Notes: generated by a model from the letters alone, not told the origin. Numbered from the stretch's first letter, positions 7,701 to 55,082 are shown. The stretch is DNA of 64,000 bases from Amphiura filiformis (GCF_039555335.1 NC_092630.1:31084769-31148768); one strand, 5' to 3'. Numbers and translations: made by a program.

Positions 7701-9615
7701 ACATTGAATTCTTTCATTTAGGATGTAATTTTATCCAGTTTTTTTTTATACTTCAAAGAAATGCACTTTGTTTGGCAATTATGATTTTGAATTTCCAAAT
7801 CGTACACATACGCACAAACATCTCCAGTACATTTTACTACTAATGTTTAAACGCCCAAACCGCATTGCGCATTATACGCATACTATTCAAAATGCGATAC
7901 GTGTGCGAACAGAGTACGCGTATATGACAAACAAGTGTGCCTACGCACAAACATGCGTAGTACATAATTAGCCTCTCGTTATAAAAGGTCAGCAGACCTT
8001 GCTCGTCCTTCAACATGTTTGAGGGGAGTATGCCGATTTAATTTGGTTACGAAGGTATCCTTTCAAAGCAAACACTATGGACCACAAGAGCCTCGTCCAA
8101 TGGCACAGTCCAATAACCTCAATTACATAATCATAGTGCAAAATTTGACCTCAAGTTGCAGAGTATGAGTTTTGTACCCAAATCTTCAAAGGTCATTCAA
8201 TGAATGTACACATGTATGGGGTATAAGAACTTCCCCTGATAGATGAGAATGTTGTGGATCTTAATGAAATGAACTGGGAATTGTTTCATCGTAAAAGTTC
8301 TAATGTCCTCGAGAGAGACAGTTATATATGCTTCGCTATGCATCTGTGTGTTAAAACAGGCTACCATTGCAAAATATTATGAAGCGAGAAAAACGTGCGT
8401 CTGGTTGTACATAACACGCGGGCAAGACAGGCAAAACAATAATGTAACATTAATGTTTCACATTTCTTCCCCTCCATATCAATGTTTAAGCAAACACTTG
8501 ACTAAACGTCATTTAATTTGAAGGTTACTACTTGTTTATAAAGAATGCAAATGAAGTGCTCAAACCTAAACATTTTCCTAACACCCCATCCCTCCCCCTC
8601 CCCCTTCCCCACCAATCAATGTTGGGTTCTATTAGGCTCCCGTGACCAAACAAATTAGGATTCAACATTGCAGAGTCCGAACACGGAGGCTATTCATAAG
8701 ACCCAAATCAACATTGTTACGGGGGAGGAGGGGGTCGAATATGGTGCGTGGTCCTCAAGTGTCCCAAGGCTAGTTTCCGTACTTTGCGTTTTGTTTACAA
8801 TTACCTTTCCGATGGTAATGACATTTTAAAAATAAATAAAAAAATTGACAGTGATTCGTCGTCATCATTAACATTATCACCATCATCATCATCATCATTA
8901 TCATCACCATCATCACCATAATCATCATCATCACTACCATTGTCAAAGGAGTACATTTCTTAAATCACGTTTTTAAACTTCAAGCTTAGTTTGCCACCAA
9001 AAAATATCAACTACCAGATAAGGCTGAAATAAAAATAAAGTGAATTCTTAAACACTTGAGAACGTTCCTGCAATCTTATTGGTTCTTACCCAGCTTTACC
9101 GTGTGATATGACACGATATCACACGGTCAGCGTGCAGGCGTCGACGCCGACACGCTGTACTCGCTATTTGGACCAATCGGAGGCGCACAGCAACAACGAG
9201 ACTGATCGATTTTAAGCGCTTGGTAATTCCTTGCAAAATGTAGGATTTAATTTAATTAAAACTTGTATAATATTTTTATTTGAATTGAAGTGTTTAAGAA
9301 TGAGAATAAAGGTATTGTTTTAGCCGCTGTCGTGCATCTATCGTCTCATATAACACGCGCTATCATTATTTTTGGCGTAAAACAATTCGGCTTCGCCCCG
9401 TTGTTTTACTTAAAATAATGATGTCGCCGTGTTATATGAGACGATAGATGCACTAACAGCGCTAAAAACAATACCTTTATTCTCTAACTATTTACAGTCC
9501 ATTTAAAAACAAATTTGTTTTAGATAATGATTTGGAAATTCAAAATCATATTTCCAACACAAAGTGAATTTCTTTGAAGTTTAAAAAAAGTGGATTTAAT
9601 TACATCCGAAATGAA
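7701..9615. mobile_element. Element A, second copy, carrying two internal insertions (about 8040-8380, and 9045-9480 with its own palindrome)
   Basis: 7701-8040 matches 5351-5690. 8380-9045 matches 5690-6200. 9480-9615 matches 6200-6351. Confidence 0.7.
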
Positions 9616-11715: not shown

Positions 11716-12082
11716 ATAAAAATTGAAAATGGCGGCCATTTTGGACGCCATCTTGATTTTGAAGGAAGCACAAGGGGATTCTCGGGGACTTTTGGAATTT
11801 GATTCTATACATATTCCTGGACCTATCCTGAAAAAATCAGCTTGTTATGAGAAATGTTAACCTTTTTATGACATATGAGCTAATACTATTGGACTATTTG
11901 AAATATCACAGTTGGATTGCATACAGGTGTTGAAAACTGTGTTTATTCAATTGAAATTTCTAGTATAGTTGTCCTAACTAATTTACACATAAGACAACAA
12001 ATTGGCAATGTCCAAAAGACATGGCAATTGACTCAGATTTGCAGTCAGAGTATATCCTCCCATATTTCCATTGACTACCTAC

Positions 12083-12226
12083 CTGTCCCATATTTCTGAA
12101 TTTTGCTAGCACTGCCCCTGCTACTGCTGTGTCCACATCGGCTGAATCAAACACAAGGAAGGGGGCATTACCACCAAGCTCCATAGACACACGCTTCACT
12201 GTACTTGCTGCTTGCTTGAGTAAAAT
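12083..12226 (-). CDS. ALDH5A1: ALDH5A1-like exon 6 ([48 protein letters not shown])
   Basis: ORF 11978..12397(-). ELGGN general-base motif. Acceptor ttgccag|ATTTTA, donor GGACAG|gtaggt. Confidence 0.85.
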
Positions 12227-12361
12227 CTGGCAATAATATGGTGACGTAAGAACAAAACTTAGAAAGTAGAATGACAATTTTCTAAAGGATGTAAATATTA
12301 ATAAGAGCAACCAATAGTTTCTTTTTCTTTCTTTCATATTATCAGTATTGGTCCAGTATAG

Positions 12362-12640
12362 TCCCACCCGCTTTTTTAGGTGAAAATTTTTCACCAAAAA
12401 AAAATTTCAAGATGTTTTGTATTTTTAATATGAAAATTGATAATTTGTATTCATGTCATACTCTATTAATGATTTCAAAATCCATTGAATTTGAATGCAT
12501 TTTGAAAACATTAATAGAATATGACATGAATACAAATTATCAATTTTCATATTAAAAATACAAAACATCTTGAATTTATTTTTTTACAATTTCTGGAATT
12601 TTTCGAAAAATGGGGGGTGGGACTATACTCGGACGAATAC
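12362..12640. mobile_element. Foldback element related to the family 4 core, with its own TIR gagtatagtcccaccc
   Basis: 12362-12385 is the reverse complement of 12612-12640. The core matches the 23560-23700 palindrome. Confidence 0.6.
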
Positions 12641-15739: not shown

Positions 15740-16097
15740 GAGGGTACTACAGACTACACCCCTGCCCAATGTTGTGCCTATTTTTGCATTTTTCTCAAAA
15801 ATTATAGAGCATTGAGGGCAAGTAAGATATGTATATTATAGGGGCAAGGACTTCAACTACTGCCCTAGACATTTTATTTCAGCACAGACAGCAGTTGTGG
15901 AGTAACAGTCAAAAATTAGGGAAAACCAATATTTGATAAATAAATCAATAATTACTTGCCTAGAGTTGCGGAATTTTCAGTGTAGTAGTTGTAGTCCTTG
16001 TCCCTATATATACATATCTTACTTGTCACCAATGCACTATAATTTTTGAGGAAAATGCAAAAATAGGCACAAAATTGGCCAGGGGTGTAGTACCCCC
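15740..16097. mobile_element. piggyBac-like MITE (family 2; TIR gagggtactacagactacacccct / aggggtgtagtaccccc) flanked by TTAA
   Basis: TTAA at 15736-15739 and 16098-16101. Copies at 47103-47465 (TTAA on the right flank) and a 5'-truncated copy at 27527-27810. Confidence 0.6.
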
Positions 16098-16216
16098 TTA
16101 AGAATATAAAATAGGCCACCTGTCAATATCTGACTATATTTGAACTATATTTTAACCACAGCCAGGTTTTGAAGAAAAGAATATTTTTTACCAATAACAA
16201 TACTTGTTTTACCTAC

Positions 16217-26374: not shown

Positions 26375-26625
26375 TGTTTCATCACTTTCATGCATACTTC
26401 CCGGGGGGTAAAATTTCCAAACGGCTCGCCAAAAATAGTTTGTCCCCCCTCTCGCCCACCAAAAATCGCTTGCCCCCCCTCTTGTCCTGCCAAAAATCTT
26501 TGCCCCCCCCTTGCACATGCCAAAATGGCTTGCCCCCCCCCCCTTCGGATCGCCAAAAATGTCTTCCCCCCAATTTTACCCTCTCTCAGGGCTCATAATT
26601 ATTGCACAGCCCCTAATGAAATCCT
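26375..26625. mobile_element. Family 5 MITE with internal (GCCAAAAAT..TTGCCCCCCC)n sub-repeats
   Basis: Ends gggggtaaaattt / aattttaccc. Copies at 41695-42015 and 50920-51370. Confidence 0.6.
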
Positions 26626-27526
26626 ATTTATAGGTGGCCAATTTTATTATAACGAGCTTTGCTCACATTTGTTTTCCTACCAATGAATTGTTTTGTACAT
26701 TTATCATGAACATTGAACATTGAATTGTCGGGACATGGGTTATACTCAAATGCAGCAAACCTTTGACGAGCGCGACTTCCGTGATGTTGCAAATTCGGCG
26801 CTAACAATGCGTACGGCGCACAGTTCATTCATAAATTTCCACTCAGCAACAACATATCGCCTTAGCAGCCAATCAGAGACAAGTGCGTGTAACGCAGTAA
26901 ATATGCGATGTATCCTTACAATACGCGCTCGTCAAAGGTTTACTGCATTTTAGTTTAGTGGCCTGGATTGAGCCTTATCTGCTTCAAGTGCTTGATTAAA
27001 ATTAAAGTTTAACCGACTCTTTTAAGCTTACCTGATTTTGGCGACTTAGTCTGGATTATGAAAGCTACCTAGTACTTCTATGTTTGCTTTGAAGAGAACT
27101 GCGTTATTTTATGAAACAGTGAAGTTATTTAGTGGTATGAAAAACCTGAAAAAGGTAAACAAAATCCAGCAAACATGTAAACGTCAAATCAATCAATCAG
27201 CTGGGACATTGCAACACAGTGAAGGGGACGGGCTTTGCATAGCACTGACCTCCAACCTGCGCTGCGGATGTAATTTGCCACCAAATAACAACATAACAAT
27301 AGTTTCCGCTCGGCTAGTTCCGTTGTAAAAACGTCCCTGAGATTTTTAGAATCATGACTGTAAGTAATTATGGTATTATGTTTTAAACTCACTAACTCAC
27401 TTTAACTGCATCTAGTTTCGTGTAGTGATCAAGTCACAGGCTTAAATGTTTGCGTAATTATCATGATTGATAAGCTTACCGCCGGGTAAGCTTACTATAT
27501 TATTCTATACTAAATGTTGCCTCAAA

Positions 27527-27810
27527 AGTTATGTATATTATAGGGGTAAGGAATCCAGTTACTACACTTGAATTCCAGTGACTCAAGACAAGCGGTATGT
27601 TATTTATGATAAGAAAAGAGGTACCGCTAGAATGTACCTCATTTCTTAACATATATAAATGAACCCCTTGTCTTGAATCACTGAAATTTCAGTGAAGTAA
27701 TTGGAGTCCTTACCCCTATAATATACATAACTTTTGTTACCAGTGTGTAGTTACTTTTTGAGAAAAATGCAAAATTAGTCAAAAAATTTATCAGGGGGTG
27801 TAGTACCACC
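27527..27810. mobile_element. Family 2 MITE, 5'-truncated copy
   Basis: Matches the internal and right-TIR sequence of 47103-47465. Confidence 0.5.
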
Positions 27811-28744
27811 TTAAGTAGTCAGTAATTGTTTTAGTTGTACAAATTCAACATTCAAAGCTGTCAATACATCATACCCTCACTAGATTTGAAAAAAGTAACC
27901 AGTAGTTTTGACATGCTGACATGTGAATTTTCACATATAGGCCCTATTGCACACTCCCGCATCCGCCTGCTCCACATCCGCCTGCTCCTCCACCCCTGGC
28001 ATTTTTCGTTTCAACTGATGTGATTTTTTTATTGAATAATGCATAATTATATGCTTCAGTAGACTGAAAGAGTATAAAATTAGGCTTAAAATGAGGTATC
28101 AACCACTGCTGTAGGATATGGGGTTATGGAAAGCCAATCAAATTTGTAACGCAATTTTCCGAAAAATGTAATCCCTCCACCCTTTTTGCATACCCAACTT
28201 ATGACATGCGACCGTGTAAGCTTGCAATACATTTTCTGCATCAGAAAAGCTACTAGAACGTCTCGGGACCCTTTTATAACGTTTGTAAACTTGTCTCTAA
28301 TAAACGCCTGTTAGGAAAAAATTAGGCAAACCATGTAAAAATAAGCACCCACCAGCAAATTAGTAAAAACTGTCGGATGGGCATGAAACTTGGTGGGTAC
28401 AGTCTACATTTAGAGCCAAATTTTTGGAAGGTCATTTCGGGGTCACCAGGTGTCATCTGAGGTACAAGTTTACTGAACGCCCAGCCAGGGGGATCGCGTG
28501 GTTCGAGAACCACCTATTTTTTATGGTTAATTTCACCCTTTCCTTGACATTCTCGTTTTAAGAGAAAGACTGACCTTTCGCTTGATACTACAGTCTACAT
28601 GAAAAAACTTACACTGAGTCACTGACCAGTATCTTAACTTTTACTTGCATCATCCAGAATCAGCCAAACGCTCAGTACTGCGATCACTGTATCAAAGAGC
28701 TGACAATGTATCGTCGAACATTGAAAACAGACAACATGAAAACG

Positions 28745-36010: not shown

Positions 36011-36221
36011 GATTGAAATGGTCTTCCATTCTACATTTGCAGTTTTAGGGCACCACTATACAAATTTATGCAAAGGTTCTTTGTGCACTGTTTTTAGATT
36101 TCAAATAAACTTAACACCTTCTTTATTATCATTTTCAGAAATATATATATTTGGAGCTTGCCACCAGTCAACCACATTGTATCAGAATTTGAACATCAGA
36201 AACAACATCTATCTCCTCACG

Positions 36222-37832
36222 ATGGCAGAAGGACCTTGGCTTCGCAACTGGGGCCACATGACACAGCAATTTGAAGGTAACAAAATTGAAATGATATCTG
36301 GCACCACCAAGTTAATCGACAAAGAAATGTGGCAAAGAGCTTATTTCTCTTTAGTACAAGTGTACGGCAAACAAATGTTCATCAAACTCTCTCACAGTTG
36401 TGCAGGAGATGAAGACAAGTCCATCTGGTTGCGGTATCATTTCCAGATGCACGGAAGACTTAAAATTGGGCTGAAGCTAAGTAAAGAACAACAACCTCGA
36501 TTGGTTTTCCATTTCCAAGATAGAAAATATCTTGCATTTTTCGGTGGCTCTCTCAAAATTGTAGCAGGACCTTGTGAAGACACCAAGACAGATATTCTAA
36601 GTGAGACTTTTGATAGAGAACAGGCCGCTGAAGCTGTGAGGCAAGGTGATCATGTTTGTAACATTCTATTGGACCAAACACACTTCTCTGGTGTCGGCAA
36701 TATCATCATGAATGAAGTGCTGTATAACTGCAAAATCCATCCTCAAGAAATTGGGGAGAATCTCAGTCGAACAGAGGCAGAGAACTTGGTCAATGAAGTT
36801 GTTAAATTCAGCAACGAGTGGCTGGATTGGGAGCTCTCTGATCACTCATGCGAAGAAAATTTGAGTGATCAAATGAAAGTATACTGGAAATTTACATGCC
36901 CTCTTGGTCACAAAACTAAACGGGGCTGGTTTAAAGAGAACGAGCTGAAATGGGTAATGGTGTGGTGTCCTCGATGCCAGCAAGAGAAAAGTATGCCAAT
37001 TCAAAAGCTGGGATGTGGAAAAGTAGTTGATAGCAAAAGTAGCAATGGTGAGGATGCAAGTAGTGCAGAATACAGTGGTGGTGAGGTTCAATGTAGCGAT
37101 AGTGATGGAACAGGAAGTTATGATTGGAATTGCACGTTAGATGAGTTGCCATCTATGAGTAATGAGGATACAATCAATACCAGTGATGAGCATGGTAATG
37201 ATGTGATGATGTATGATAATATGGTGACATCGGATAGTGGAATGGCATCGGATGGTGATTTGGAAGTTGTAAGTGTCATTGACAGAACATGTGTTATAAT
37301 GAGTAACTATGAAGAAAAGAAACCAAAAGTTGACAACTCTTCCAAATCGTGTAATAAATCGGTAAAAGTTCTTGTGGAACAAAGCGTTCTTGAGTTGCAT
37401 CCCAAGTTAAACATGGCAGCTGTTGCACTTGCGAAGAAACTATCTGCACATGAAATTCAGAGGCGTACTTGCAAGTATAAAAGATGTAACACAAACTTAA
37501 AGACAAGGTCATTTAATAGCAAATGGCACAGAATCAGTCATTCCAGGTATAATAAACACACAACCTGTCACAGCAGGCCTGGAGTAAATGCGAAAATAAG
37601 TCAGAGGAAACAAGAAGATCAAATTGCGCGAAAGTTGTATAAGGCTCAAGACAGGGACATTGCAATCAAGAAGAAAGCAAGTAGTAGAAAGACCAAGGTG
37701 CCTACATGTAGAATGCCCTTGAAGAAGTGGAGGGTTTCGGATTGTGTAAAGCTATCAGCTCAAGACAAGAACACTACAATGAAGATGGTAAAAACTCCAA
37801 GTGGTACTTTTGTTGTTACAGCACCCAAGTAA
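36222..37832 (+). CDS. NEIL2: Nei-like DNA glycosylase 2 (NEIL2-type; Fpg/Nei N-terminal domain, H2TH, CHCC zinc finger), single exon, with a ~280-aa low-complexity C-terminal extension
   Basis: ORF 36018..37832. From the Met at 36222: MAEGPWLRNWGHMTQQFEGNKI (human NEIL2 is MPEGPLVRKFHHLVSPFVGQQV). PRLVFHFQDRKYLAFFGG, LLDQTHFSGVGNIIMNEVLYNCKIHP (H2TH) and CPLGH...WCPRCQ (CHCC) are all collinear with NEIL2, with no frameshifts or stops. TATATATATTT lies about 75 nt upstream of the ATG. Confidence 0.85.
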   Translation: MAEGPWLRNWGHMTQQFEGNKIEMISGTTKLIDKEMWQRAYFSLVQVYGKQMFIKLSHSCAGDEDKSIWLRYHFQMHGRLKIGLKLSKEQQPRLVFHFQDRKYLAFFGGSLKIVAGPCEDTKTDILSETFDREQAAEAVRQGDHVCNILLDQTHFSGVGNIIMNEVLYNCKIHPQEIGENLSRTEAENLVNEVVKFSNEWLDWELSDHSCEENLSDQMKVYWKFTCPLGHKTKRGWFKENELKWVMVWCPRCQQEKSMPIQKLGCGKVVDSKSSNGEDASSAEYSGGEVQCSDSDGTGSYDWNCTLDELPSMSNEDTINTSDEHGNDVMMYDNMVTSDSGMASDGDLEVVSVIDRTCVIMSNYEEKKPKVDNSSKSCNKSVKVLVEQSVLELHPKLNMAAVALAKKLSAHEIQRRTCKYKRCNTNLKTRSFNSKWHRISHSRYNKHTTCHSRPGVNAKISQRKQEDQIARKLYKAQDRDIAIKKKASSRKTKVPTCRMPLKKWRVSDCVKLSAQDKNTTMKMVKTPSGTFVVTAPK

Positions 37833-41694: not shown

Positions 41695-42015
41695 ATTATG
41701 AGTGGGTAAAATTTCCAAATGGAAAAATTGTCCCCCCCCTCTTGGCCTGCCAAATCTTTGTCCCCCCCCTCCTCCTTAGCACATGCCAAATTTTTGGTAT
41801 CCCAATTTGCTGTTGTTTTTGTAAGTACTGTTTCCTTTTTAAAGCGTTATATTTGAAAGGCACCCCATGAATGTGTGCCCAAAATCGCTTGTCCCCATCT
41901 CGGCTTGCTAAAAATTGCTTTCCCCCGCTTCAGCTTTCCAAAAATTTCTTGCCCCCCCCCCCCCCCCCCCCAATTTTACCCTCCCACCAGGGGGGCTCAT
42001 AAAGAACAGCCCTTA
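41695..42015. mobile_element. Family 5 MITE copy
   Basis: gggtaaaatttccaaat...ccaattttaccctc, with C-homopolymer-punctuated sub-repeats. Confidence 0.6.
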
Positions 42016-46671: not shown

Positions 46672-47102
46672 TATCTGTAATGTTCACACACATGTTCCAA
46701 GTTACACCTAAATGGAATCAGCCAAGTTTGTTGTGCTTGTGTAAAATGAGCAATTTTGACAGTACATTTGTAAGTCGTACATTAAGTCCCCCGTATAACT
46801 CCATGTTAAATGGCTAAAATAGCCAGTGGGGTTTCTTTCACTTAACCTCGTTATTTTTGTATAAAATGGAAAGAAACCCTTCACCATTTTGGTAAAGAAT
46901 GACAAAATTAAAATTTGACGAAATCGTACATTATATGGCTTTAATTGAATATTTATAAATCAATAAACTATGAAAATAGCATTTGTTAAGTTAAATTTTG
47001 AGGCATGGTAGTATTTTTGTGCATTCTTCAAATTGTGAAATTTCATGAGAACTTTCATTGTGTTTTGAAATGATTTAAGCAAAGTGTTGGTTAATCTGTG
47101 AA

Positions 47103-47465
47103 GGTGGTACTACACCCCTCGATAAATTTGTGTCTATTTTTGCATTTTTCTCAAAAACTAAAAACACAGTAGTATCAAAAGTTATGTATATTATAGGGGC
47201 AAGGTTCCAATCCAATTACTTCACTGGAATTTCATTGACCCAAGACAAGCGGTTCATTATTTATGATAAGAAAAGAGGTACTGGTAGAATGTACCTCATT
47301 TCCTATCATATATACCGAACCGCTTGTCTTGAGTCACTGAAATTTCAGTGTAATAATTGGACTCCTTGCCACAATAATATACATAACTTTTGTTACCAGT
47401 GTGTTATTATTTTTTGAGAAAAATGTAAAAATAGTCACAAATTTACCATAGGGGTGTAGTACCCC
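47103..47465. mobile_element. Family 2 MITE copy
   Basis: ggtggtactacacccct ... aggggtgtagtaccccc|ttaa. Confidence 0.6.
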
Positions 47466-47968
47466 CTTAAAGCTTAAAAAAATTATAAGATCAATTACTG
47501 ATCGACCAACAATAGCCAATGAGAAGTCTGCCTTTAGAAGAATATCAGAAGAATCCCGCGTCCAAAATTGAACATCTCAAAATAATTAATTATTTTATTT
47601 TTGTTTCTAATTTTCTCCTTTAAAATAACTTTCAACTACTTCTACTTGCCATTTTCTGACTTTAATAATATCAACAATAATGATGAATAAACAAAGAGTA
47701 CAACTCCACCTTCACTTATTTATAAAATCAAATATTGTTGTGAAATAATTAAATGCCCACTCCAGTCAAAACAAGTCAATAGTTGCTTGTAATAGTTCAA
47801 ACTAGATAAAGAAAATAAAAGATAATTAATAATTAAGTCACCTCGTCCCTTTTTCCAAATCAGGGCAGCCAGCATACCACATGGGCGGGGGTTAAAAGGG
47901 GCAGGGTTTTGTCACTGAACTCAATCAGTTAATTAACCTTATCAGTTTATTAATCTAATCAAGTATCC

Positions 47969-49366
47969 ATGAATGCTGACGATGCTGATGCTTATGATGC
48001 TGCTGATGCTGCTGATGATGATGCTGTTGACGATGCTGATGCTGCTGATGATGATGCTACTGATGATGCTGTTGATGCTGCTGCTGATAATGATGTTGAT
48101 ACTGATGATGCTACTGATGATGCTGCTGATGATGCAGATGCTGCTGATGATGCTGATGATGTTGATGCTGATGATGTTCATGATGCGACTGATGATAATG
48201 CTGATGATGCTGCTGCCAATGATGCTGATGATGATGTTGCTACTGATGATGCTGATACTGATGATGATGCTGATGATGATGATGTTGCTGCTGATAATGA
48301 TGTTGATACTGATGATGCTGCTGACAATGCAGGTGCTGATGGTGCTGCTGATGATGATGCTGATGATGTTGATCATGTTGATGATGCGACTGATGATGAT
48401 GCTGCTGCAGATGATGATGCTGCTGCAGATGATGATGCTGCTGATGATGCTGATACTGCTCATAATGCTGCTGCTGACGATGCTGCTGATGTTGATGCTG
48501 CTGCTGATGATGATGCTGATACTGATGACGCTGATGATGATGCTGCTGCTGACGATGTAGATGCTGATGATGATGCTAATGCTGCTGCTGATGTTGATGC
48601 TGCTGCTGATAATGATGTTGATACTGATGATGCTGCTGATGATGCTGCTGCTGACGATGCAGATGCTGATGATGATGCTGATGATGTTGATGATGCGACT
48701 GATGATGTTGCTGCTGCTGATGATGCTGCTACTGATGATGCTGATACTGCTGCTGATGATGCTGCTGATGATGATGCTGCTGCTGATGTTGCTGCTGATA
48801 ATGATGTTGATACTGATGATGCTGCTGCTGACAATGCAGGTGCTGATGGTGCTGCTGATGATGATGCTGATGATGTTGATGATCATGTTGATGGTGCGAC
48901 TGATGATGCTGCTGCTGCTGATGATGCTGATACTGCTCATAATGCTGCTGCTGACGATGCTGCTGATGATGTTGATGCTGTTGATGATGCTGATACTGCT
49001 GCTGCTGCTGATGATGATAATGTTGCTGCTGCTGCTGATGCTGCTGATATTAATGATGCTGCTGCTGATGTTGCTGCTGATGATGCAGATGTTGATGATG
49101 CTGATGATGATGTTGACGATGCTGCTGATGATGCTGATGCTGCTGCTGATGATGCTGTTGCTGATGATGCTGATACTGATGATGCTGCTGCTGACGGTGC
49201 TGCTGCTGATGTTGATGCTACTGCTGATGATGCTGATACTGATGCTGCTGCTGCTGACGATGTAGATGCTGATGATGATGCTGCTGCTGACGATGCGGAT
49301 GCTGCTGCTGATGATGATACTGATGATGTTGATGATGATGTTGATGATGCTGCTGATGATGACTGA
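47969..49366 (+). CDS. Intact 465-codon ORF encoding an extremely acidic poly(Asp/Ala) protein (MNADDADAYDAADAADDDAVDD...), built from GATGCT-type cryptic repeats. Coding status is uncertain.
   Basis: Uninterrupted ORF with ATG AAT GCT at 47969. Codons are almost exclusively GAT/GCT/GAC/GTT/ACT. There is an internal 510-bp duplication (48285-48400 matches 48795-48910). No signal peptide. Confidence 0.3.
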   Translation: MNADDADAYDAADAADDDAVDDADAADDDATDDAVDAAADNDVDTDDATDDAADDADAADDADDVDADDVHDATDDNADDAAANDADDDVATDDADTDDDADDDDVAADNDVDTDDAADNAGADGAADDDADDVDHVDDATDDDAAADDDAAADDDAADDADTAHNAAADDAADVDAAADDDADTDDADDDAAADDVDADDDANAAADVDAAADNDVDTDDAADDAAADDADADDDADDVDDATDDVAAADDAATDDADTAADDAADDDAAADVAADNDVDTDDAAADNAGADGAADDDADDVDDHVDGATDDAAAADDADTAHNAAADDAADDVDAVDDADTAAAADDDNVAAAADAADINDAAADVAADDADVDDADDDVDDAADDADAAADDAVADDADTDDAAADGAAADVDATADDADTDAAAADDVDADDDAAADDADAAADDDTDDVDDDVDDAADDD

Positions 49367-49673
49367 TGATGACAATGATGCCTCGGATGATGACTTGCAT
49401 GATGATGACATGTATGATCAGTAGCTGTATCATCACCATCATCAGCATCAGCAGGATCATCATCAGCAGCATCACCAGCATCAGTATCATCAGTAGCAGT
49501 ATCAGCATCATCAACAGCATCATCATCAGCATCATAATCAGCATCAGCAGGATCATCATCAGCAGCATCACCAGCATCAGTATCATCAGTAGCAGTATCA
49601 GCATCATCAACAGCATCATCATCAGCATCATAATCAGCATCAGCAGCATCATCAGCATCACCATCATCTGCAT

Positions 49674-49714
<41 letters not shown>

Positions 49715-49746
49715 GCATCATCATTAGCATCATCAGCATCATTATC

Positions 49747-50099
49747 TTAATTGGCATCATCAGCATTATCAGCATCAGCAGCATCATCATCAGTAGGCCT
49801 AACATCATCAGCATCACCATCTGCATCAGAATCATCATCAGCAGCATCAGCATCATCATAATCAACATCATAATCAGCAGCAACATCATCATTATCACCA
49901 TCATCTGCATCAGAATCATCACCAGCATCATCATCATCATCCTCATTAGCATCATCAGCATCATCATCATAATCGGCATCATAAGCATTATCATCATCAT
50001 CAGCATCATCATCAGCAACATTATCAGCATTATCATCGGCATCAGCATCATCATCATCATTAGCATAATCAGCATCAGCACCATCAACATCATCATCAA

Positions 50100-50130
<31 letters not shown>

Positions 50131-50878
50131 ATCTACATCGTCAGCAGCAGCATTATCGTCAGCGTCATCAGTATCAGCATCATCATCAGCAGCATCAACA
50201 TCAGCAGCAGCATCGTCAGCATCAGTATCAGCATCATCAACAACAGCAGCAGCATCATCAGCATCGTCAGCAGCATCATCAGCAGTATCAGAATCATTTT
50301 CAGCAGCAGCATTAACATCATCAGCAGCAGCATTATTAGCATTAGCATTGTCAGCAACATCATCAGCATCATTATCATCAGCAGCATCATCAGTAGCAGC
50401 ATCATCAGCAGCATCATCATCATCAACAGCATTATCATCCAGCAGTATCATTATCAGCAGCATCATAAGCATCAGCATCGTCAGCATCATCATCAACAGC
50501 ATCACCATCATCAGCATCATCATCAGCAGCATCATCAGCATCTGCTCCATCAGCAGCAGCATAATCAGCAGCATCATCAGTATCAACATCATTATCAGCA
50601 GCAGCATTAACATCATCAGCAGCAGCATCAGCATCATCAGTATCAGCATCATCAGCAGCAGCATCATCATCATCAGTCGCATCATCATCAACATCATCAT
50701 CAGCATCATCATCAGCATCTGCATCGTCAGCAGCATCATTAGTATCAACATCATTATCAGCAGCAGCATCAACATCATCAGCAGCAGCATCATCATCAGC
50801 AGCATCATCATCAGTAGCATCATCAGCAGCATCAGCATCGTCAACAGCATCATAATCAGCAGCATCATAAGCATTCAT
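49747..50878 (-). pseudogene. Inverted, diverged paralogue of the D/A-rich ORF (MNAYDAADYDAVDDADAADD...). The D/A frame is broken by a stop and frame shifts.
   Basis: ORF 50435..50989(-) holds the D/A frame from ATG 50878 and stops at 50435. The D/A frame resumes in a different frame inside ORF 49747..50874(-). It starts with the same ATGAATGCT as the plus-strand copy. Confidence 0.25.
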
Positions 50879-50919
50879 GGTTACCGTAGATATTGATTGA
50901 TTACTTGATAATGATGTAA

Positions 50920-51370
50920 GGGGTGGTGCAATAATTATATGTACCCCCGGGGGTGAATTATAGGGGGGCAAAGATTTTTGGCAGGCCAAAAGGGGGGGAA
51001 AGCATTTTTGGCAGGTCGAAAGGGGGGGTTAAGCTATTTTTGGCAGGTCGAAAGGGGGGCAAGCAATTTTTGGCACAGTTATTTTGGGCACCGTTTCTAT
51101 ATTACGCCCTAAAAAGGCGTAGGAAAACGTTACGAACACATTCAAATATGCAAAATTTCCTGCTCGCTGCGCTCGCATTATATGTTATTGACAATTTAAG
51201 GTTTTAAATTCGGGTTCCCAAAAATCTTGCATGTGTAAGGGGGGGCAAAGGGCGTCAAAAGGGGGGGCAAAGGTTATTTGGCACGTCAAAAGCGGGGGGG
51301 CAAGCGATTTTGGCAGACCATTTTGAGAATTCACCCCCCCGGTACACATAATTATTGCACCACCCTAAAT
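50920..51370. mobile_element. Family 5-related element with 40-bp TIRs (ggtggtgcaataattatatgtacccccgggggtgaatt), abutting the start of the inverted D/A paralogue
   Basis: 50925-50965 is the reverse complement of 51330-51370. Internal ggcaagc.atttttggcaggtcgaaaggggggg sub-repeats. Confidence 0.65.
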
Positions 51371-52864: not shown

Positions 52865-53664
52865 ATGGCAGCCTACATACATCATGTCCAGCTCTGCACG
52901 AAGCACGGGTCTAAATATGTGCAGAAGTTTGTCCAGAATGCTAATTTCAAACTTTTTGCCGAGAGAACAACTGATTCTATAAGGCAGTGGGCTGTCAGGA
53001 GTGGCTCAACAGTATTTGTCATCAATCAACCCGTCACTGCGAACGCTGAACCAGGCGCAGAACACGTTGAAAATCCGTATAGGCCTACGTTGTTGTGTAA
53101 TAATACTATTACCAATTCTCGTATTTCTGATCGTGGTTCTGGCATGTCTGGTGAACACCCCCAAAGTTATAAGAGTGATCAAAATCAGTCAATACCAAAT
53201 CAACGTCATCATATACCATTATCCTGTTTTTCATCTAATAAGGACCGAAATATAGATACAGTTTTTAATGTTGCATTCGAAGTTCCCAATGTTGAAAAAA
53301 GTGTTGAACTGGCACAGCAAAATGGGGCTAAAGTCCTATGTGAACCAACAGCAGTGCATGATGGTAATGGAAAAGTGGTTGTTGCTTCTGTGCAATCTTG
53401 CATCGGCAATGTTGTTCATATGTTGCTCAATGCAACAGACTACCATGGGGTCTTTTTACCAGGGTTTTGCAGCATAGAATCAGAATCTCATCATGCTCAT
53501 GATAAGAACTTGAATTTTTTTGAATTTGAAACAAGCGAAGTTAATGGACAGACATTAACAAGTCATCTGGATCATGTAACTTTTGCATCAAACATAGGTA
53601 CTTCAAGTCACGTTCTAGAATGGTATGAGAAGTGTTTTGGAATGAAGCGATTCAAACTATCCAG
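52865..53664 (+). CDS. HPDL: 4-hydroxyphenylpyruvate dioxygenase-like (HPDL / glyoxalase-domain) exon 1
   Basis: ORF 52865..53668 gives MAAYIHHVQLC...RQWAVRSGSTVFVINQ (human HPDL is MAAPALRLCHIAFHV...WRQLALRSGDAVFLVNE), then YHGVFLPGF and LDHVTFASNIGTSSHVLEWYEKCFGMKRFKL. Donor TCCAG|gtaaga. Confidence 0.8.
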
Positions 53665-55082
53665 GTAAGAGGTATTATATAGGCCTACATGGATGTATAC
53701 ATGTAAACTCCATGCAATACTTTTTTCTATAGTATAGGCCTATTAAATCACAAAAGATTTTTTAGGAGATGATGAGTGCTTTATATATTTTTGCAGAATG
53801 ATTTCCATATGTAGGGACAGGCACATCTGAACGAGGGCGCTATTTATTTTACTTGATAATACAGGCGGTGATGGAAGCGATATCGCCAATTTTGAGGTCG
53901 CCATTGGATTAACACATAATCATGAAATCTTCACAAACAATTCTAAATTTGTTATGTGGTGTCAAAGCAAAATTACATGTATCTTACTCTAAAACCGTCG
54001 GGGTACGACAATGTACCACACTGCAAGTATGTTAATTTTCCATTTGTAATTGCTAACCGTGTATTTTGAATGGGGCTGTCAGCCCTGTATCTTCGCCAGC
54101 CTCAGACGTCACGTGTTGCGCTTCCTATGCCGCCTGGATAATAAAGCCCTATGTAAATCTGTGCCATTTTGTGCCACTGAAAACACCATTTTTGGAGAAA
54201 ATGATGAATAAAACCAAAATGAATCGTTTTCAGATGCTCTAGTTTGCATTGACAACAGATTCAATGCTTTAGGAAGCAGAATGCAACATTGACTTCACTT
54301 TTGGATATTTTTTTCTGTGAGATATGCCTTGGTGAAAATCACTATTTTGGTCAAAAAAGGGGTCAAAAAGGGGCATTTTTGGGAAAAAAATCTATTTTGA
54401 CCCAAAATTCATCTTCTGACAAAAGGGAAACATGGTTTGACAAAAACTTTCATCCTTTTCACATAACAATTCCAGTTTACATATTTGCTGGGAGAAAGCA
54501 CTTTTTTGTTATCGCTTGGGAAAAATCATTGTTTTTGCCTAAAATGGCCGAAAAAATGGCACATTTTTACCACCTTAAAAATTGAATTTTCATACAAAAT
54601 TTCACAGATGTGTTGGAAATGATAACATACATAATATTCAACAAAAATTAGATAAAATTACAATGAAAACAAAAAATTAGAGAAAATGGCCCAATGTTCC
54701 GACAGTAATTTTGTCATACAGTAGAAGATTTGTTTTGGTGTCAAATTGTTTCTGAGAAGTTCTCTCTTCCAATAAACAACAATTCATGTTAATAGAATTA
54801 ATTTGAAATTTTTATGCCTTAACCTAATAATTTTTCATTTTAAAGATGTACTGTATACCGGTACTTGTATCCGTGAATTTGATGTTTTTCAATGGGTACA
54901 AAATTTGTTGTTTTCCATAACTTTTCATCCCTGCCCAGATGACTTGTCATATTTTATTTTATGAAGAGCATGAATGAATTCATATTTTTTATAGTCAAAA
55001 TGTTAGATTTTTGTATGCATGTACATTACTACATGTACAATGGTTAATCATTCTTGGATGTGTTTGTTGCTTCTTTCTGCAG

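What the first reader, a model, noticed from the sequence alone, without database searches (positions are those of the whole stretch)
47880..50990. Tail-to-tail inverted pair of poly(Asp/Ala) ORFs built from GATGCT cryptic repeats
Arm 1 (47969-49366, +) is an uninterrupted 465-codon ORF starting ATGAATGCT and encoding nearly pure D/A (MNADDADAYDAADAADDDAVDD...), with a 510-bp internal duplication. Arm 2 (50878 down to about 49450, -) starts with the same ATGAATGCT and the same motifs (gctgctgataatgatgttgatactgatgatgctgct), but its D/A frame is broken. The two arms form a roughly 2 x 1.4 kb imperfect palindrome centred near 49400. The opposite frames read Ser/Ile and Met/Leu, so only one frame per arm is plausibly coding. 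An intact ATG-initiated ORF of this length inside a repeat, duplicated and inverted, could be a real hyper-acidic protein gene (compare Asp-rich matrix or Ca-binding proteins). It could also be an expanded satellite that merely lacks stops. Either way it is a large potential cruciform or fragile structure. There is no signal peptide at the N-terminus.
Basis: partly seen in the sequence, partly recalled or inferred. Interest (0 to 1): 0.7.

Follow-up and report, generated by a model that had tools for sequence, protein, structure and literature searches.

The report
Inverted GAT/GCT repeat, ORFs incidental
A 2.9-kb stretch of brittle-star (Amphiura filiformis) intergenic DNA is a real inverted duplication of a simple repeat built from GAT and GCT triplets; its long poly(Asp/Ala) reading frame is most likely a by-product of triplets that cannot mutate to a stop in one step, not a gene.

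Summary
Arm 1 (47969-49366, +) is a 465-codon ATG-initiated Asp/Ala ORF. Arm 2 (50878 down to 49430, -) starts with the same CCATGAATGCT, is collinear with arm 1 for about 400-500 nt, and is broken by one 1-nt insertion and one TAA. The centre is CAGTAGCTG at 49419-49427. The window is Amphiura filiformis, and the locus lies among MITEs between a NEIL-like and an HPDL-like gene.

The gene reading is not supported. The antisense Ile/Ser frame is open for longer (489 aa). The stop counts in all six frames match a neutral simulation, in which the D/A frame stays open in 70-92% of runs. The third codon position is the least variable. Paralogous blocks differ by 19 nonsynonymous and 1 synonymous change. 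The ORF begins and ends with the repeat, and has no signal peptide or nearby poly(A) signal. No protein search or exact look-up found it, although the neighbouring RefSeq protein is in the collection.

Best reading (about 0.7): neutral, cryptically simple triplet-phased repeat, expanded by slippage and then inverted-duplicated. Rivals are an orphan hyper-acidic gene, a foldback transposon (no target-site duplication found) and a hairpin-RNA locus. Interest is low.

The parts
47969..49366 (+). Arm 1: triplet-phased GAT/GCT cryptic repeat. Its D/A frame is a 465-codon ATG...TGA ORF.
   Evidence: GAT 201 and GCT 156 of 465 codons; third position is T in 93.5%. TRF best periods are 15, 33 and 18 at about 71% matches.
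48070..48960 (+). Internal duplication of about 0.5 kb within arm 1 (copy A about 48070-48480, copy B about 48592-48960).
   Evidence: Exact matches of 43-58 nt at offsets of 504-522 nt. In the alignment all gaps are multiples of 3.
49365..49424 (+). Tail of arm 1. After a 1-nt frameshift (GATGATGAC-T-GATGATGAC) the Asp-rich frame continues as DDDNDASDDDLHDDDMYDQ and ends at TAG 49422-49424.
   Evidence: translation. TRF period-12 unit TGATGATGACA at 49309-49418.
49419..49427 (.). Centre of the palindrome, CAG-TAG-CTG. There is no real spacer between the arms.
   Evidence: The hairpin apex of the predicted ssDNA fold lies in this central part of the folded stretch.
49430..50878 (-). Arm 2: inverted copy of the repeat, starting ATGAATGCT at 50878. 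D/A frame: 147 codons, a 1-nt insertion (CC at 50439-50440), 230 codons, TAA (49747-49749), then about 105 more D/A codons.
   Evidence: Collinear alignment with arm 1 over about the first 400-500 nt.
49441..49646 (-). Tandem duplication with a 96-nt offset private to arm 2 (49441-49550 is identical to 49537-49646).
47939..47968 (+). Left outer boundary. Only CC and a weakly similar 17-40 nt (TAATCTAATCAAGTATC) are shared with the right outer flank (50879-50918, inverted). No target-site duplication.
   Evidence: local alignment score reached by 22 of 500 shuffles, anchored alignment by 4 of 500; no direct repeat of 9 nt or more at the boundaries; flanks otherwise unrelated.
47091..47477 (.). 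Context: palindromic MITE-like element in the left flank.
   Evidence: Self-inverse at 83% over 394 nt; copies at 27522-27814 and 15753-16101.
50917..51368 (.). Context: MITE with 39-nt terminal inverted repeats (50921-50959 / 51328-51365) and G-rich 30-bp sub-repeats, 38 nt from the start of arm 2.
   Evidence: Family copies at 26428-26620 (-) and 41733-42000 (-).

Best explanation
This is a non-coding, cryptically simple DNA repeat in an intergenic, transposon-rich part of an Amphiura filiformis chromosome.

Proposed history (inferred): an array of GAT and GCT triplets grew by replication slippage and unequal exchange in steps of 3n nucleotides, from single triplets up to about 0.5-kb blocks. 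The whole array of about 1.4 kb, including its 5' boundary, was then copied in inverted orientation onto its own tail. The likely route is a fold-back or template-switch repair or replication event at the short CAG..CTG inverted microhomology. The two arms have since diverged by substitutions, 3n indels and private internal duplications.

The long poly(Asp/Ala) ORF, and the even longer antisense Ile/Ser ORF, are by-products. No single substitution turns GAT, GCT or their common derivatives into a stop, and slippage keeps the triplet phase.

Shown: the structure, the homology of the arms, the neutral-like substitution pattern, and the lack of any database or annotation support. Inferred: the order of events and the duplication mechanism.
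For: 1. ORF boundaries coincide with repeat boundaries. The ATG is the first codon of the array, and the TGA is created by a 1-nt frameshift inside the repeat.
2. Arm 1 has 0, 3, 208, 0, 6 and 7 stops in its six frames, and the antisense I/S ORF is 489 aa against 465 aa.
3. A neutral substitution simulation on random GAT/GCT arrays, at the observed 21-27% variant codons, gives 0.1-0.35, 0.2-0.45, 202-217, 0.04-0.16, 6-12 and 8-13 stops in those frames. The D/A frame stays open in 70-92% of runs.
4. Only 1 of 465 codons (TAT) is one step from a stop.
5. The third codon position is the most conserved (T 93.5% and 94.6%, against first-position G 90.5% and 87%). Variant codons are mostly transitions of GAT or GCT at any position.
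6. In confidently aligned paralogous blocks there are 20 single-nucleotide differences: 19 nonsynonymous and 1 synonymous, where 22-28% synonymous is expected under neutrality. There is therefore no purifying selection on the protein.
7. Radical replacements (N, Y, H, G, V) are common, while the conservative D-to-E change is nearly absent. This is odd for protein-level selection.
8. There is no Pfam hit, no hit among 5.8 billion clusters and no hit among 1.84 billion representatives. phmmer would detect even a 100-aa identical fragment at E = 1e-23.
9. The exact ORF, and ten ORFs in other frames, are absent from the 15-billion-protein collection. That collection does hold the RefSeq protein of the neighbouring gene, XP_072025792.1.
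10. There is no signal peptide. No AATAAA or ATTAAA occurs on the + strand until 51993, so any arm 1 transcript must read through the antisense of arm 2.
11. The surroundings are MITE-rich intergenic DNA. The genome paper reports about 100x Nanopore coverage and a recent DNA-transposon burst (PMC11310086).
Against: 1. The triplet phase is kept very well. Only two non-3n indels occur in 2.9 kb (50439-50440 and 49364), and either could be a residual Nanopore assembly error, given QV 31.6. If both are errors, both arms would carry long ATG-initiated D/A ORFs. Depending on how many substitutions are independent events (12 to about 190), neutral expectation ranges from about 1 to about 19 frameshifting indels, so this point is undecided.
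2. Third-position changes in Asp codons are almost all synonymous (GAC 23 against GAA+GAG 2), whereas Ala codons show mostly T-to-A or T-to-G changes. The events are not independent, because they are copied by block duplication.
3. Both arms keep the ATG.
4. The animal builds a calcite skeleton, and Asp-rich matrix proteins exist in other phyla.
5. Annotation pipelines mask low-complexity DNA, and a protein without K or R is invisible to tryptic proteomics. Absence from databases is therefore weak evidence.
6. No transcript data could be consulted.
Confidence: 0.7

Rival explanations
1. Arm 1 is a real, lineage-specific (orphan) gene encoding a 45-kDa hyper-acidic, intrinsically disordered poly(Asp/Ala) protein, and arm 2 is its inverted pseudogene or second copy. 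Only composition would be under selection, so dN/dS near or above 1 is tolerated.
For: - Intact ATG-to-stop ORF of 465 codons.
- Arm 2 is broken by only one 1-nt insertion and one stop in 1.45 kb.
- The assembly's per-base error rate of about 7e-4 could account for a single frameshift.
- Asp third-position changes are 23 synonymous against 2 D-to-E.
- The organism biomineralises, and skeletal matrix proteins are typically acidic, repetitive and hard to find by homology (PMC4336488).
Against: - ORF openness is expected neutrally, and an antisense ORF is longer.
- The third position is the least variable, and paralogous blocks differ 19:1 nonsynonymous to synonymous.
- There is no signal peptide and no non-repetitive terminus.
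- There is no poly(A) signal before the opposite arm.
- It is not in the RefSeq-containing collection in any frame.
- No homologue was found.
- The brittle-star skeletal proteome paper reports no Asp/Ala-rich protein.
Confidence: 0.12
2. The locus is a non-autonomous foldback-type DNA transposon, made almost entirely of two long terminal inverted repeats that consist of short tandem repeats, with no middle domain.
For: - The architecture matches the description of foldback elements: long TIRs (up to 1.7 kb in Tetris) with internal tandem repeats, and a variable or absent middle domain without coding capacity. Foldback elements have also been reported in sea urchin (PMC4079207).
- The arms end at the same sequence, CCATGAATGCT.
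- The neighbourhood is full of MITEs.
- The genome had a recent DNA-transposon burst.
Against: - There is no target-site duplication at any plausible boundary.
- There is no distinct non-repetitive terminal domain; only CC and a weakly significant 17-40 nt are shared.
- There is no second copy in the 64-kb window.
- The arms are only collinear for about the first third, with 89% identity in ungapped columns overall.
- An exact-match scan of metagenome contigs with one 30-nt motif was empty, but that collection is not expected to hold this genome.
Confidence: 0.1
3. The inverted repeat is transcribed as one unit and acts as a hairpin-RNA (endo-siRNA or piRNA) source. It might target transcripts with GAT/GCT-rich, Asp/Ala-coding regions.
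For: - Long hairpin potential, z = -11.5.
- Any transcript of one arm must include the antisense of the other, because no poly(A) signal intervenes.
- Drosophila hpRNAs arise as inverted-repeat copies of exon fragments of their target genes (PMC10317233).
Against: - The arms are about 89% identical with many indels, which is far from the near-perfect duplexes of known hpRNAs.
- No progenitor or target gene was found.
- There is no evidence of transcription or of small RNAs.
- There is no Rfam match.
Confidence: 0.05
4. The palindrome is an assembly artefact, such as a fold-back chimeric Nanopore read or a mis-joined haplotype.
For: The assembly is Nanopore R9.4.1 with flye, from a genome with 3.2% heterozygosity.
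Against: - The arms differ by 11% substitutions, dozens of indels, and private duplications (about 0.5 kb in arm 1, 96 nt in arm 2). A chimeric read would give near-identical arms.
- Each side has unique, unrelated flanks.
- Coverage was about 100x.
Confidence: 0.03

Closest known systems
Cryptically simple, triplet-phased low-complexity repeats (the concept of cryptic simplicity from Tautz, Trick and Dover 1986; cited from my own knowledge)
   Same: It is built from a few short motifs (GAT, GCT and their one-step derivatives) scrambled without a fixed long period. It grows by slippage in multiples of the unit and by block duplication. TRF finds only about 71% matches at periods of 15, 18, 33 and 42.
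   Different: It is unusually long (2 x 1.4 kb) and is organised as a spacer-less inverted duplication. It keeps triplet phase almost perfectly over 2.9 kb.
Foldback transposons (Drosophila FB, Tetris, Galileo; sea-urchin TU elements)
   Same: Two long inverted arms made of short tandem repeats, little or no middle domain, and no coding capacity (PMC4079207). From memory, TU elements of Strongylocentrotus have outer TIR domains made of short tandem repeats; I did not verify this here.
   Different: No 8-10 bp target-site duplication, no conserved non-repetitive terminal domain, and no second copy in the window.
Asp-rich biomineral matrix proteins (Aspein and Asprich of bivalves, coral SAARPs and CARPs) and the DSPP repeat domain (from my own knowledge)
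   Same: Extreme Asp content, encoded by triplet-phased cryptic repeats in which indels come in multiples of 3. The host is a calcifying animal.
   Different: Those proteins have signal peptides and non-repetitive parts, and are supported by cDNA or proteomics. This ORF is repeat from first to last codon. It has no signal peptide, no homologue, no annotation, and no synonymous-site excess.
Drosophila hairpin-RNA (hpRNA) loci
   Same: A long inverted repeat that would fold into a hairpin if transcribed. hpRNAs are born as inverted-repeat copies of gene fragments.
   Different: The arms are much more diverged and full of indels. No target or progenitor gene is known, and there are no small-RNA data.

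Membership tests
Cryptically simple triplet-phased repeat (non-coding) | Composed of a few short motifs without a dominant long period | tested here: met
   GAT and GCT make up 77% of codons in both arms. TRF periods of 15, 18, 33 and 42 all give about 70% matches.
Cryptically simple triplet-phased repeat (non-coding) | Length changes in multiples of the unit (slippage or unequal exchange) | tested here: met
   All gaps between the two copies of the arm 1 duplication are 3, 6 or 15 nt. Repeat offsets are all multiples of 3.
Cryptically simple triplet-phased repeat (non-coding) | Stop-codon pattern and substitution pattern as expected without selection on a protein | tested here: met
   Observed stops in the six frames (0, 3, 208, 0, 6, 7) match the neutral simulation. 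The third position is the least variable. Paralogous blocks differ 19:1 nonsynonymous to synonymous.
Secreted Asp-rich skeletal matrix protein gene | N-terminal signal peptide | tested here: not met
   The N-terminus is MNADDADAYDAADAADDDAVDD, with no hydrophobic core. This was judged by reading the sequence; no predictor was run. An upstream spliced exon cannot be excluded.
Secreted Asp-rich skeletal matrix protein gene | Evidence of selection on the coding frame (synonymous excess, conserved orthologues) | tested here: not met
   for substitutions. No homologue. Orthologous loci in other ophiuroids could not be examined.
Secreted Asp-rich skeletal matrix protein gene | Expressed product (mRNA or protein) | not testable with these tools
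   Only indirect evidence is available. The ORF is not in the collection that contains the RefSeq annotation of this genome, and there is no poly(A) signal within 2.6 kb.
Foldback transposon | Long terminal inverted repeats containing internal tandem repeats | tested here: met
Foldback transposon | Target-site duplication (8-10 bp) flanking the element | tested here: not met
   There is no direct repeat of 9 nt or more between 47850-47980 and 50865-50995. The only 8-mer lies 75-110 nt from the arm ends.
Foldback transposon | Multiple dispersed copies sharing the termini | tested here: inconclusive
   There are none in the 64-kb window.
hpRNA / endo-siRNA hairpin locus | Inverted repeat able to form a long duplex | tested here: met
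   ssDNA fold of -316.6 kcal/mol, z = -11.5. The arms are imperfect, at 89% identity with many indels.
hpRNA / endo-siRNA hairpin locus | Dicer-dependent small RNAs and a complementary target gene | not testable with these tools
   No small-RNA data are available. No related protein or gene was found.
Long-read fold-back assembly artefact | Near-identical arms | tested here: not met
   141 mismatches and about 60 gap runs between the arms, plus private duplications.

The most novel reading that the evidence does not exclude
Arm 1 is an expressed orphan gene, born from a triplet repeat, that makes a 465-residue protein of 46% Asp and 36% Ala with no K, R or E. Such a protein would be invisible to tryptic proteomics and to homology searches. 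It would act in the brittle star as an intracellular or unconventionally secreted polyanion, for example a Ca/Mg-carbonate modulator. The inverted partner arm would provide antisense or hairpin-RNA control of it.
Probability: 0.08. Interest if true: 0.65.

Novelty: new member of a known kind. Interest (0 to 1): 0.2.

Why it matters
The main value is cautionary. It shows cleanly that a 465-codon ATG-initiated ORF can carry no evidence of coding when its codons (GAT, GCT) are mutationally insulated from stops and slippage preserves triplet phase. Gene finders and human readers should check the antisense frame and the per-position variability before calling such ORFs.

The locus is also a natural example of a spacer-less 2 x 1.4 kb diverged palindrome in an echinoderm genome with a history of rearrangement. 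It could serve as a marker for studying fold-back or template-switch duplication. If the minority reading were true, it would be a new class of poly(Asp/Ala) protein in a calcifying animal.

Tried and rejected
- Pfam scan of the D/A protein: nothing.
- Word-indexed phmmer search against 5.8 billion clusters: no hit at E <= 1e-3. I checked locally that phmmer does recover identical fragments despite the composition bias, but does not recover arm 2 from arm 1. These searches therefore exclude near-identical sequences only, not diverged low-complexity relatives.
- Full phmmer search against 1.84 billion representatives: 0 hits.
- The look-up of encoding contigs failed for the D/A ORF, but also for the neighbouring RefSeq protein. 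That index does not cover this genome, so the result is uninformative.
- Exact look-ups of the D/A ORF, the arm 2 ORF and ten other-frame ORFs: none present.
- Exact 30-mer scan of JGI metagenome contigs: 0. It was not expected to be informative.
- Rfam scan of the whole window: nothing.
- blastn of the left flank against the right flank: no homology. A more sensitive alignment gives only weak similarity over 17-40 nt next to the ATG.
- Target-site-duplication search: negative.
- I tried to estimate whether frameshifting indels are fewer than neutral expectation. The number of independent substitution events cannot be fixed (anywhere from about 12 to about 190), so the test is inconclusive.
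- The contrast GAC >> GAA/GAG against GCA/GCG > GCC looks like selection against D-to-E, but the events are copied by block duplication. Radical replacements are also frequent, so I did not accept it as evidence of coding.
- A simple inversion inside one long array was rejected, because both outer ends carry the same start sequence and collinear first blocks.
Full report
**Where the window comes from.** The 604-codon ORF at 36018-37832 carries the H2TH and Fapy-glycosylase domains. From its second Met it is 100% identical to XP_072025792.1, an 'uncharacterized protein' of the brittle star Amphiura filiformis, encoded on an 86-Mb contig. The window is eukaryotic: about 37% GC with sparse ORFs. 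The finding lies between this NEIL-like gene and an ORF that starts at 52865 (MAAYIHHVQLC...). From my own knowledge, that ORF looks like the N-terminus of a 4-hydroxyphenylpyruvate-dioxygenase-like protein; this was not confirmed, and Pfam gave no hit.

**The observation.**
- Arm 1 (47969-49366, +) is a 465-codon ORF starting ATGAATGCT. It has 215 Asp, 169 Ala, 31 Val, 22 Thr and 14 Asn, with no Lys, Arg or Glu.
- It is made of GAT (201) and GCT (156) codons plus one-step derivatives, and 93.5% of codons end in T.
- It contains an internal duplication of about 0.5 kb (offsets 504-522 nt, exact blocks up to 58 nt) whose copies differ only by substitutions and 3n indels.
- Arm 2 runs on the minus strand from 50878 to about 49430 and begins with the same CCATGAATGCT.
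- Arm 2's D/A frame is interrupted only by a 1-nt insertion in a CC at 50439-50440 and by a TAA at 49747-49749. It contains a private tandem duplication with a 96-nt offset.
- A global alignment shows the same order of blocks in both arms over the first 400-500 nt, and 89% identity in ungapped columns overall. This is therefore a true inverted duplication and not merely two patches of like composition.
- After a 1-nt frameshift, the Asp-rich frame of arm 1 continues for 19 codons to a TAG that sits in the centre of the palindrome, CAG-TAG-CTG at 49419-49427.
- The central 996 nt folds as single-stranded DNA into one long hairpin (-316.6 kcal/mol, z = -11.5).

**Is the ORF evidence for a gene? 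No.**
- The antisense Ile/Ser frame of arm 1 is open for 489 codons, longer than the D/A ORF, and the Met/Leu frame has only three stops.
- I simulated neutral substitutions on random GAT/GCT arrays until 21-27% of codons were variants; the observed value is 23%. The D/A frame stayed stop-free in 70-92% of runs and the antisense I/S frame in 86-96%.
- The mean stop counts of the other frames (about 202-217, 6-12 and 8-13) bracket the observed 208, 6 and 7.
- The reason is simple: none of the nine one-step neighbours of GAT or GCT is a stop, and only one codon of the 465 (TAT) is one step from a stop. ORF length is therefore uninformative here.

**Is there selection on the protein? None was found.**
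- The third codon position is the least variable position in both arms (T 93.5% and 94.6%, against first-position G 90.5% and 87%).
- The variant codons are mostly transitions of GAT or GCT at any position: GTT, ACT, AAT, GAC, GGT.
- In confidently aligned paralogous blocks (arm 1 against arm 2 start, and arm 1 copy A against copy B) there are 20 single-nucleotide differences. Nineteen are nonsynonymous and one is synonymous, with 14 at the second position. About 22-28% synonymous would be expected neutrally.
- Radical replacements (Asn, Tyr, His, Gly, Val) are common, while the conservative Glu is almost absent.
- One pattern looks like constraint: GAC 23 against GAA+GAG 2, while GCA+GCG outnumber GCC. 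These variants are copied by block duplication and are not independent, so I give this little weight.

**Gene-like features are missing.**
- The ORF is repeat from its first codon to its last.
- The stop is created by a frameshift in the repeat.
- There is no hydrophobic N-terminus.
- No AATAAA or ATTAAA occurs on the + strand before 51993. On the minus strand the first one after arm 2 is at 47951. Any transcript of one arm would therefore contain the antisense of the other.

**Database evidence.**
- There was no Pfam family, no hit in the 5.8-billion-cluster search and none among 1.84 billion representatives.
- A local control showed that phmmer would find an identical 100-aa fragment at E = 1e-23 despite the biased composition. 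It does not find arm 2 from arm 1. These searches therefore exclude near-identical annotated or assembled proteins only.
- Exact look-ups of the D/A ORF, the arm 2 ORF and ten ORFs in other frames were all negative, while the neighbour's RefSeq protein is present. The locus is therefore not annotated as these ORFs in RefSeq.
- The look-up of encoding contigs does not index this genome, since it failed for the neighbour as well.
- Rfam found nothing in the window.
- The skeletal proteome paper for the brittle star Ophiocoma wendtii describes C-type-lectin and Pro/Gln-rich proteins, with no Asp/Ala-rich protein (PMC4336488). However, a protein without K or R would escape tryptic proteomics.

**Context and boundaries.**
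- The flanks of the two arms are unrelated, apart from CC and a weakly significant 17-40 nt next to the ATG. The anchored alignment score was reached by 4 of 500 shuffles.
- There is no target-site duplication.
- The left flank holds a palindromic MITE (47091-47477; copies at 27522-27814 and 15753-16101).
- The right flank holds a MITE with 39-nt terminal inverted repeats and G-rich 30-bp sub-repeats (50917-51368; copies near 26428-26620 and 41733-42000).
- The genome paper reports Nanopore R9.4.1 reads assembled with flye, QV 31.6, 3.2% heterozygosity and a recent DNA-transposon burst (PMC11310086).
- A per-base error rate of about 7e-4 means that either of the two single-base frameshifts could be an assembly error.
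- The palindrome itself cannot be a fold-back read artefact, because the arms have diverged and carry private duplications.

**Most likely explanation (about 0.7).** This is a neutral, cryptically simple triplet repeat. It expanded by slippage and unequal exchange, and was then duplicated in inverted orientation onto its own tail. The likely mechanism is a fold-back or template-switch event at the CAG..CTG microhomology (inferred). The arms have since diverged, and the ORFs are by-products.

**Rivals.**
- An orphan hyper-acidic protein gene plus an inverted pseudogene (about 0.12). What keeps this alive is the near-perfect preservation of triplet phase and the shared ATG.
- A foldback-type non-autonomous transposon (about 0.10). 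The architecture fits the published description (PMC4079207), but the target-site duplication and the terminal domain are missing, and copy number could not be tested.
- A hairpin-RNA source (about 0.05). The precedent is Drosophila hpRNAs (PMC10317233), but the arms here are too imperfect and no target is known.
- An assembly artefact (about 0.03).

**Verdict.** This is a real structure and an ordinary kind of sequence, and the gene interpretation is not supported. Interest is low. Transcript mapping, raw-read inspection, genome-wide copy counting and synteny in other ophiuroids would settle the remaining doubt.

Noticed in passing
window 50917-51368; also 26428-26620 (-) and 41733-42000 (-): A MITE family with terminal inverted repeats of about 39 nt (GGTGGTGCAATAATTAT...CCCCC) enclosing tandem G-rich 30-bp units (GGGGGGCAAAGNATTTTTGGCAGG). 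There are three copies in 64 kb, and the copy near 41950-41970 carries a run of about 20 G.
   Followed up: partly
window 47091-47477; copies at 27522-27814 and 15753-16101: A MITE-like element of about 390 nt that is its own reverse complement (83% over 394 nt), lying 500 nt upstream of arm 1. This is a second hairpin-forming repeat family in the window.
   Followed up: partly
window 36018-37832 (+): An intronless ORF for a NEIL/Fpg-type DNA glycosylase (H2TH domain), identical to RefSeq XP_072025792.1 of Amphiura filiformis. The open frame extends 67 codons upstream of the annotated start. The long C-terminal half has no Pfam domain.
   Followed up: partly
window 52865-53668 (+): A 267-codon ORF beginning MAAYIHHVQLC. 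By eye it resembles the N-terminus of 4-hydroxyphenylpyruvate dioxygenase-like (HPDL) proteins. It has no Pfam hit at E <= 0.01 and no exact entry in the protein collection, so it is probably the first exon of a longer gene about 2 kb downstream of the palindrome.
   Followed up: no
window 8801-8956 (-): A short GAT-rich run encoding DDDDYGDDGDDNDDDDDGDNVNDDDE within a 51-aa ORF. It is the only other Asp-codon repeat in the window, and it is not known whether it is exonic.
   Followed up: no
window 11978-12397 (-): An aldehyde-dehydrogenase exon (Pfam Aldedh, E = 3e-13). The sequence [18 protein letters not shown] suggests a succinate-semialdehyde-dehydrogenase-like gene on the minus strand.
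   Followed up: no
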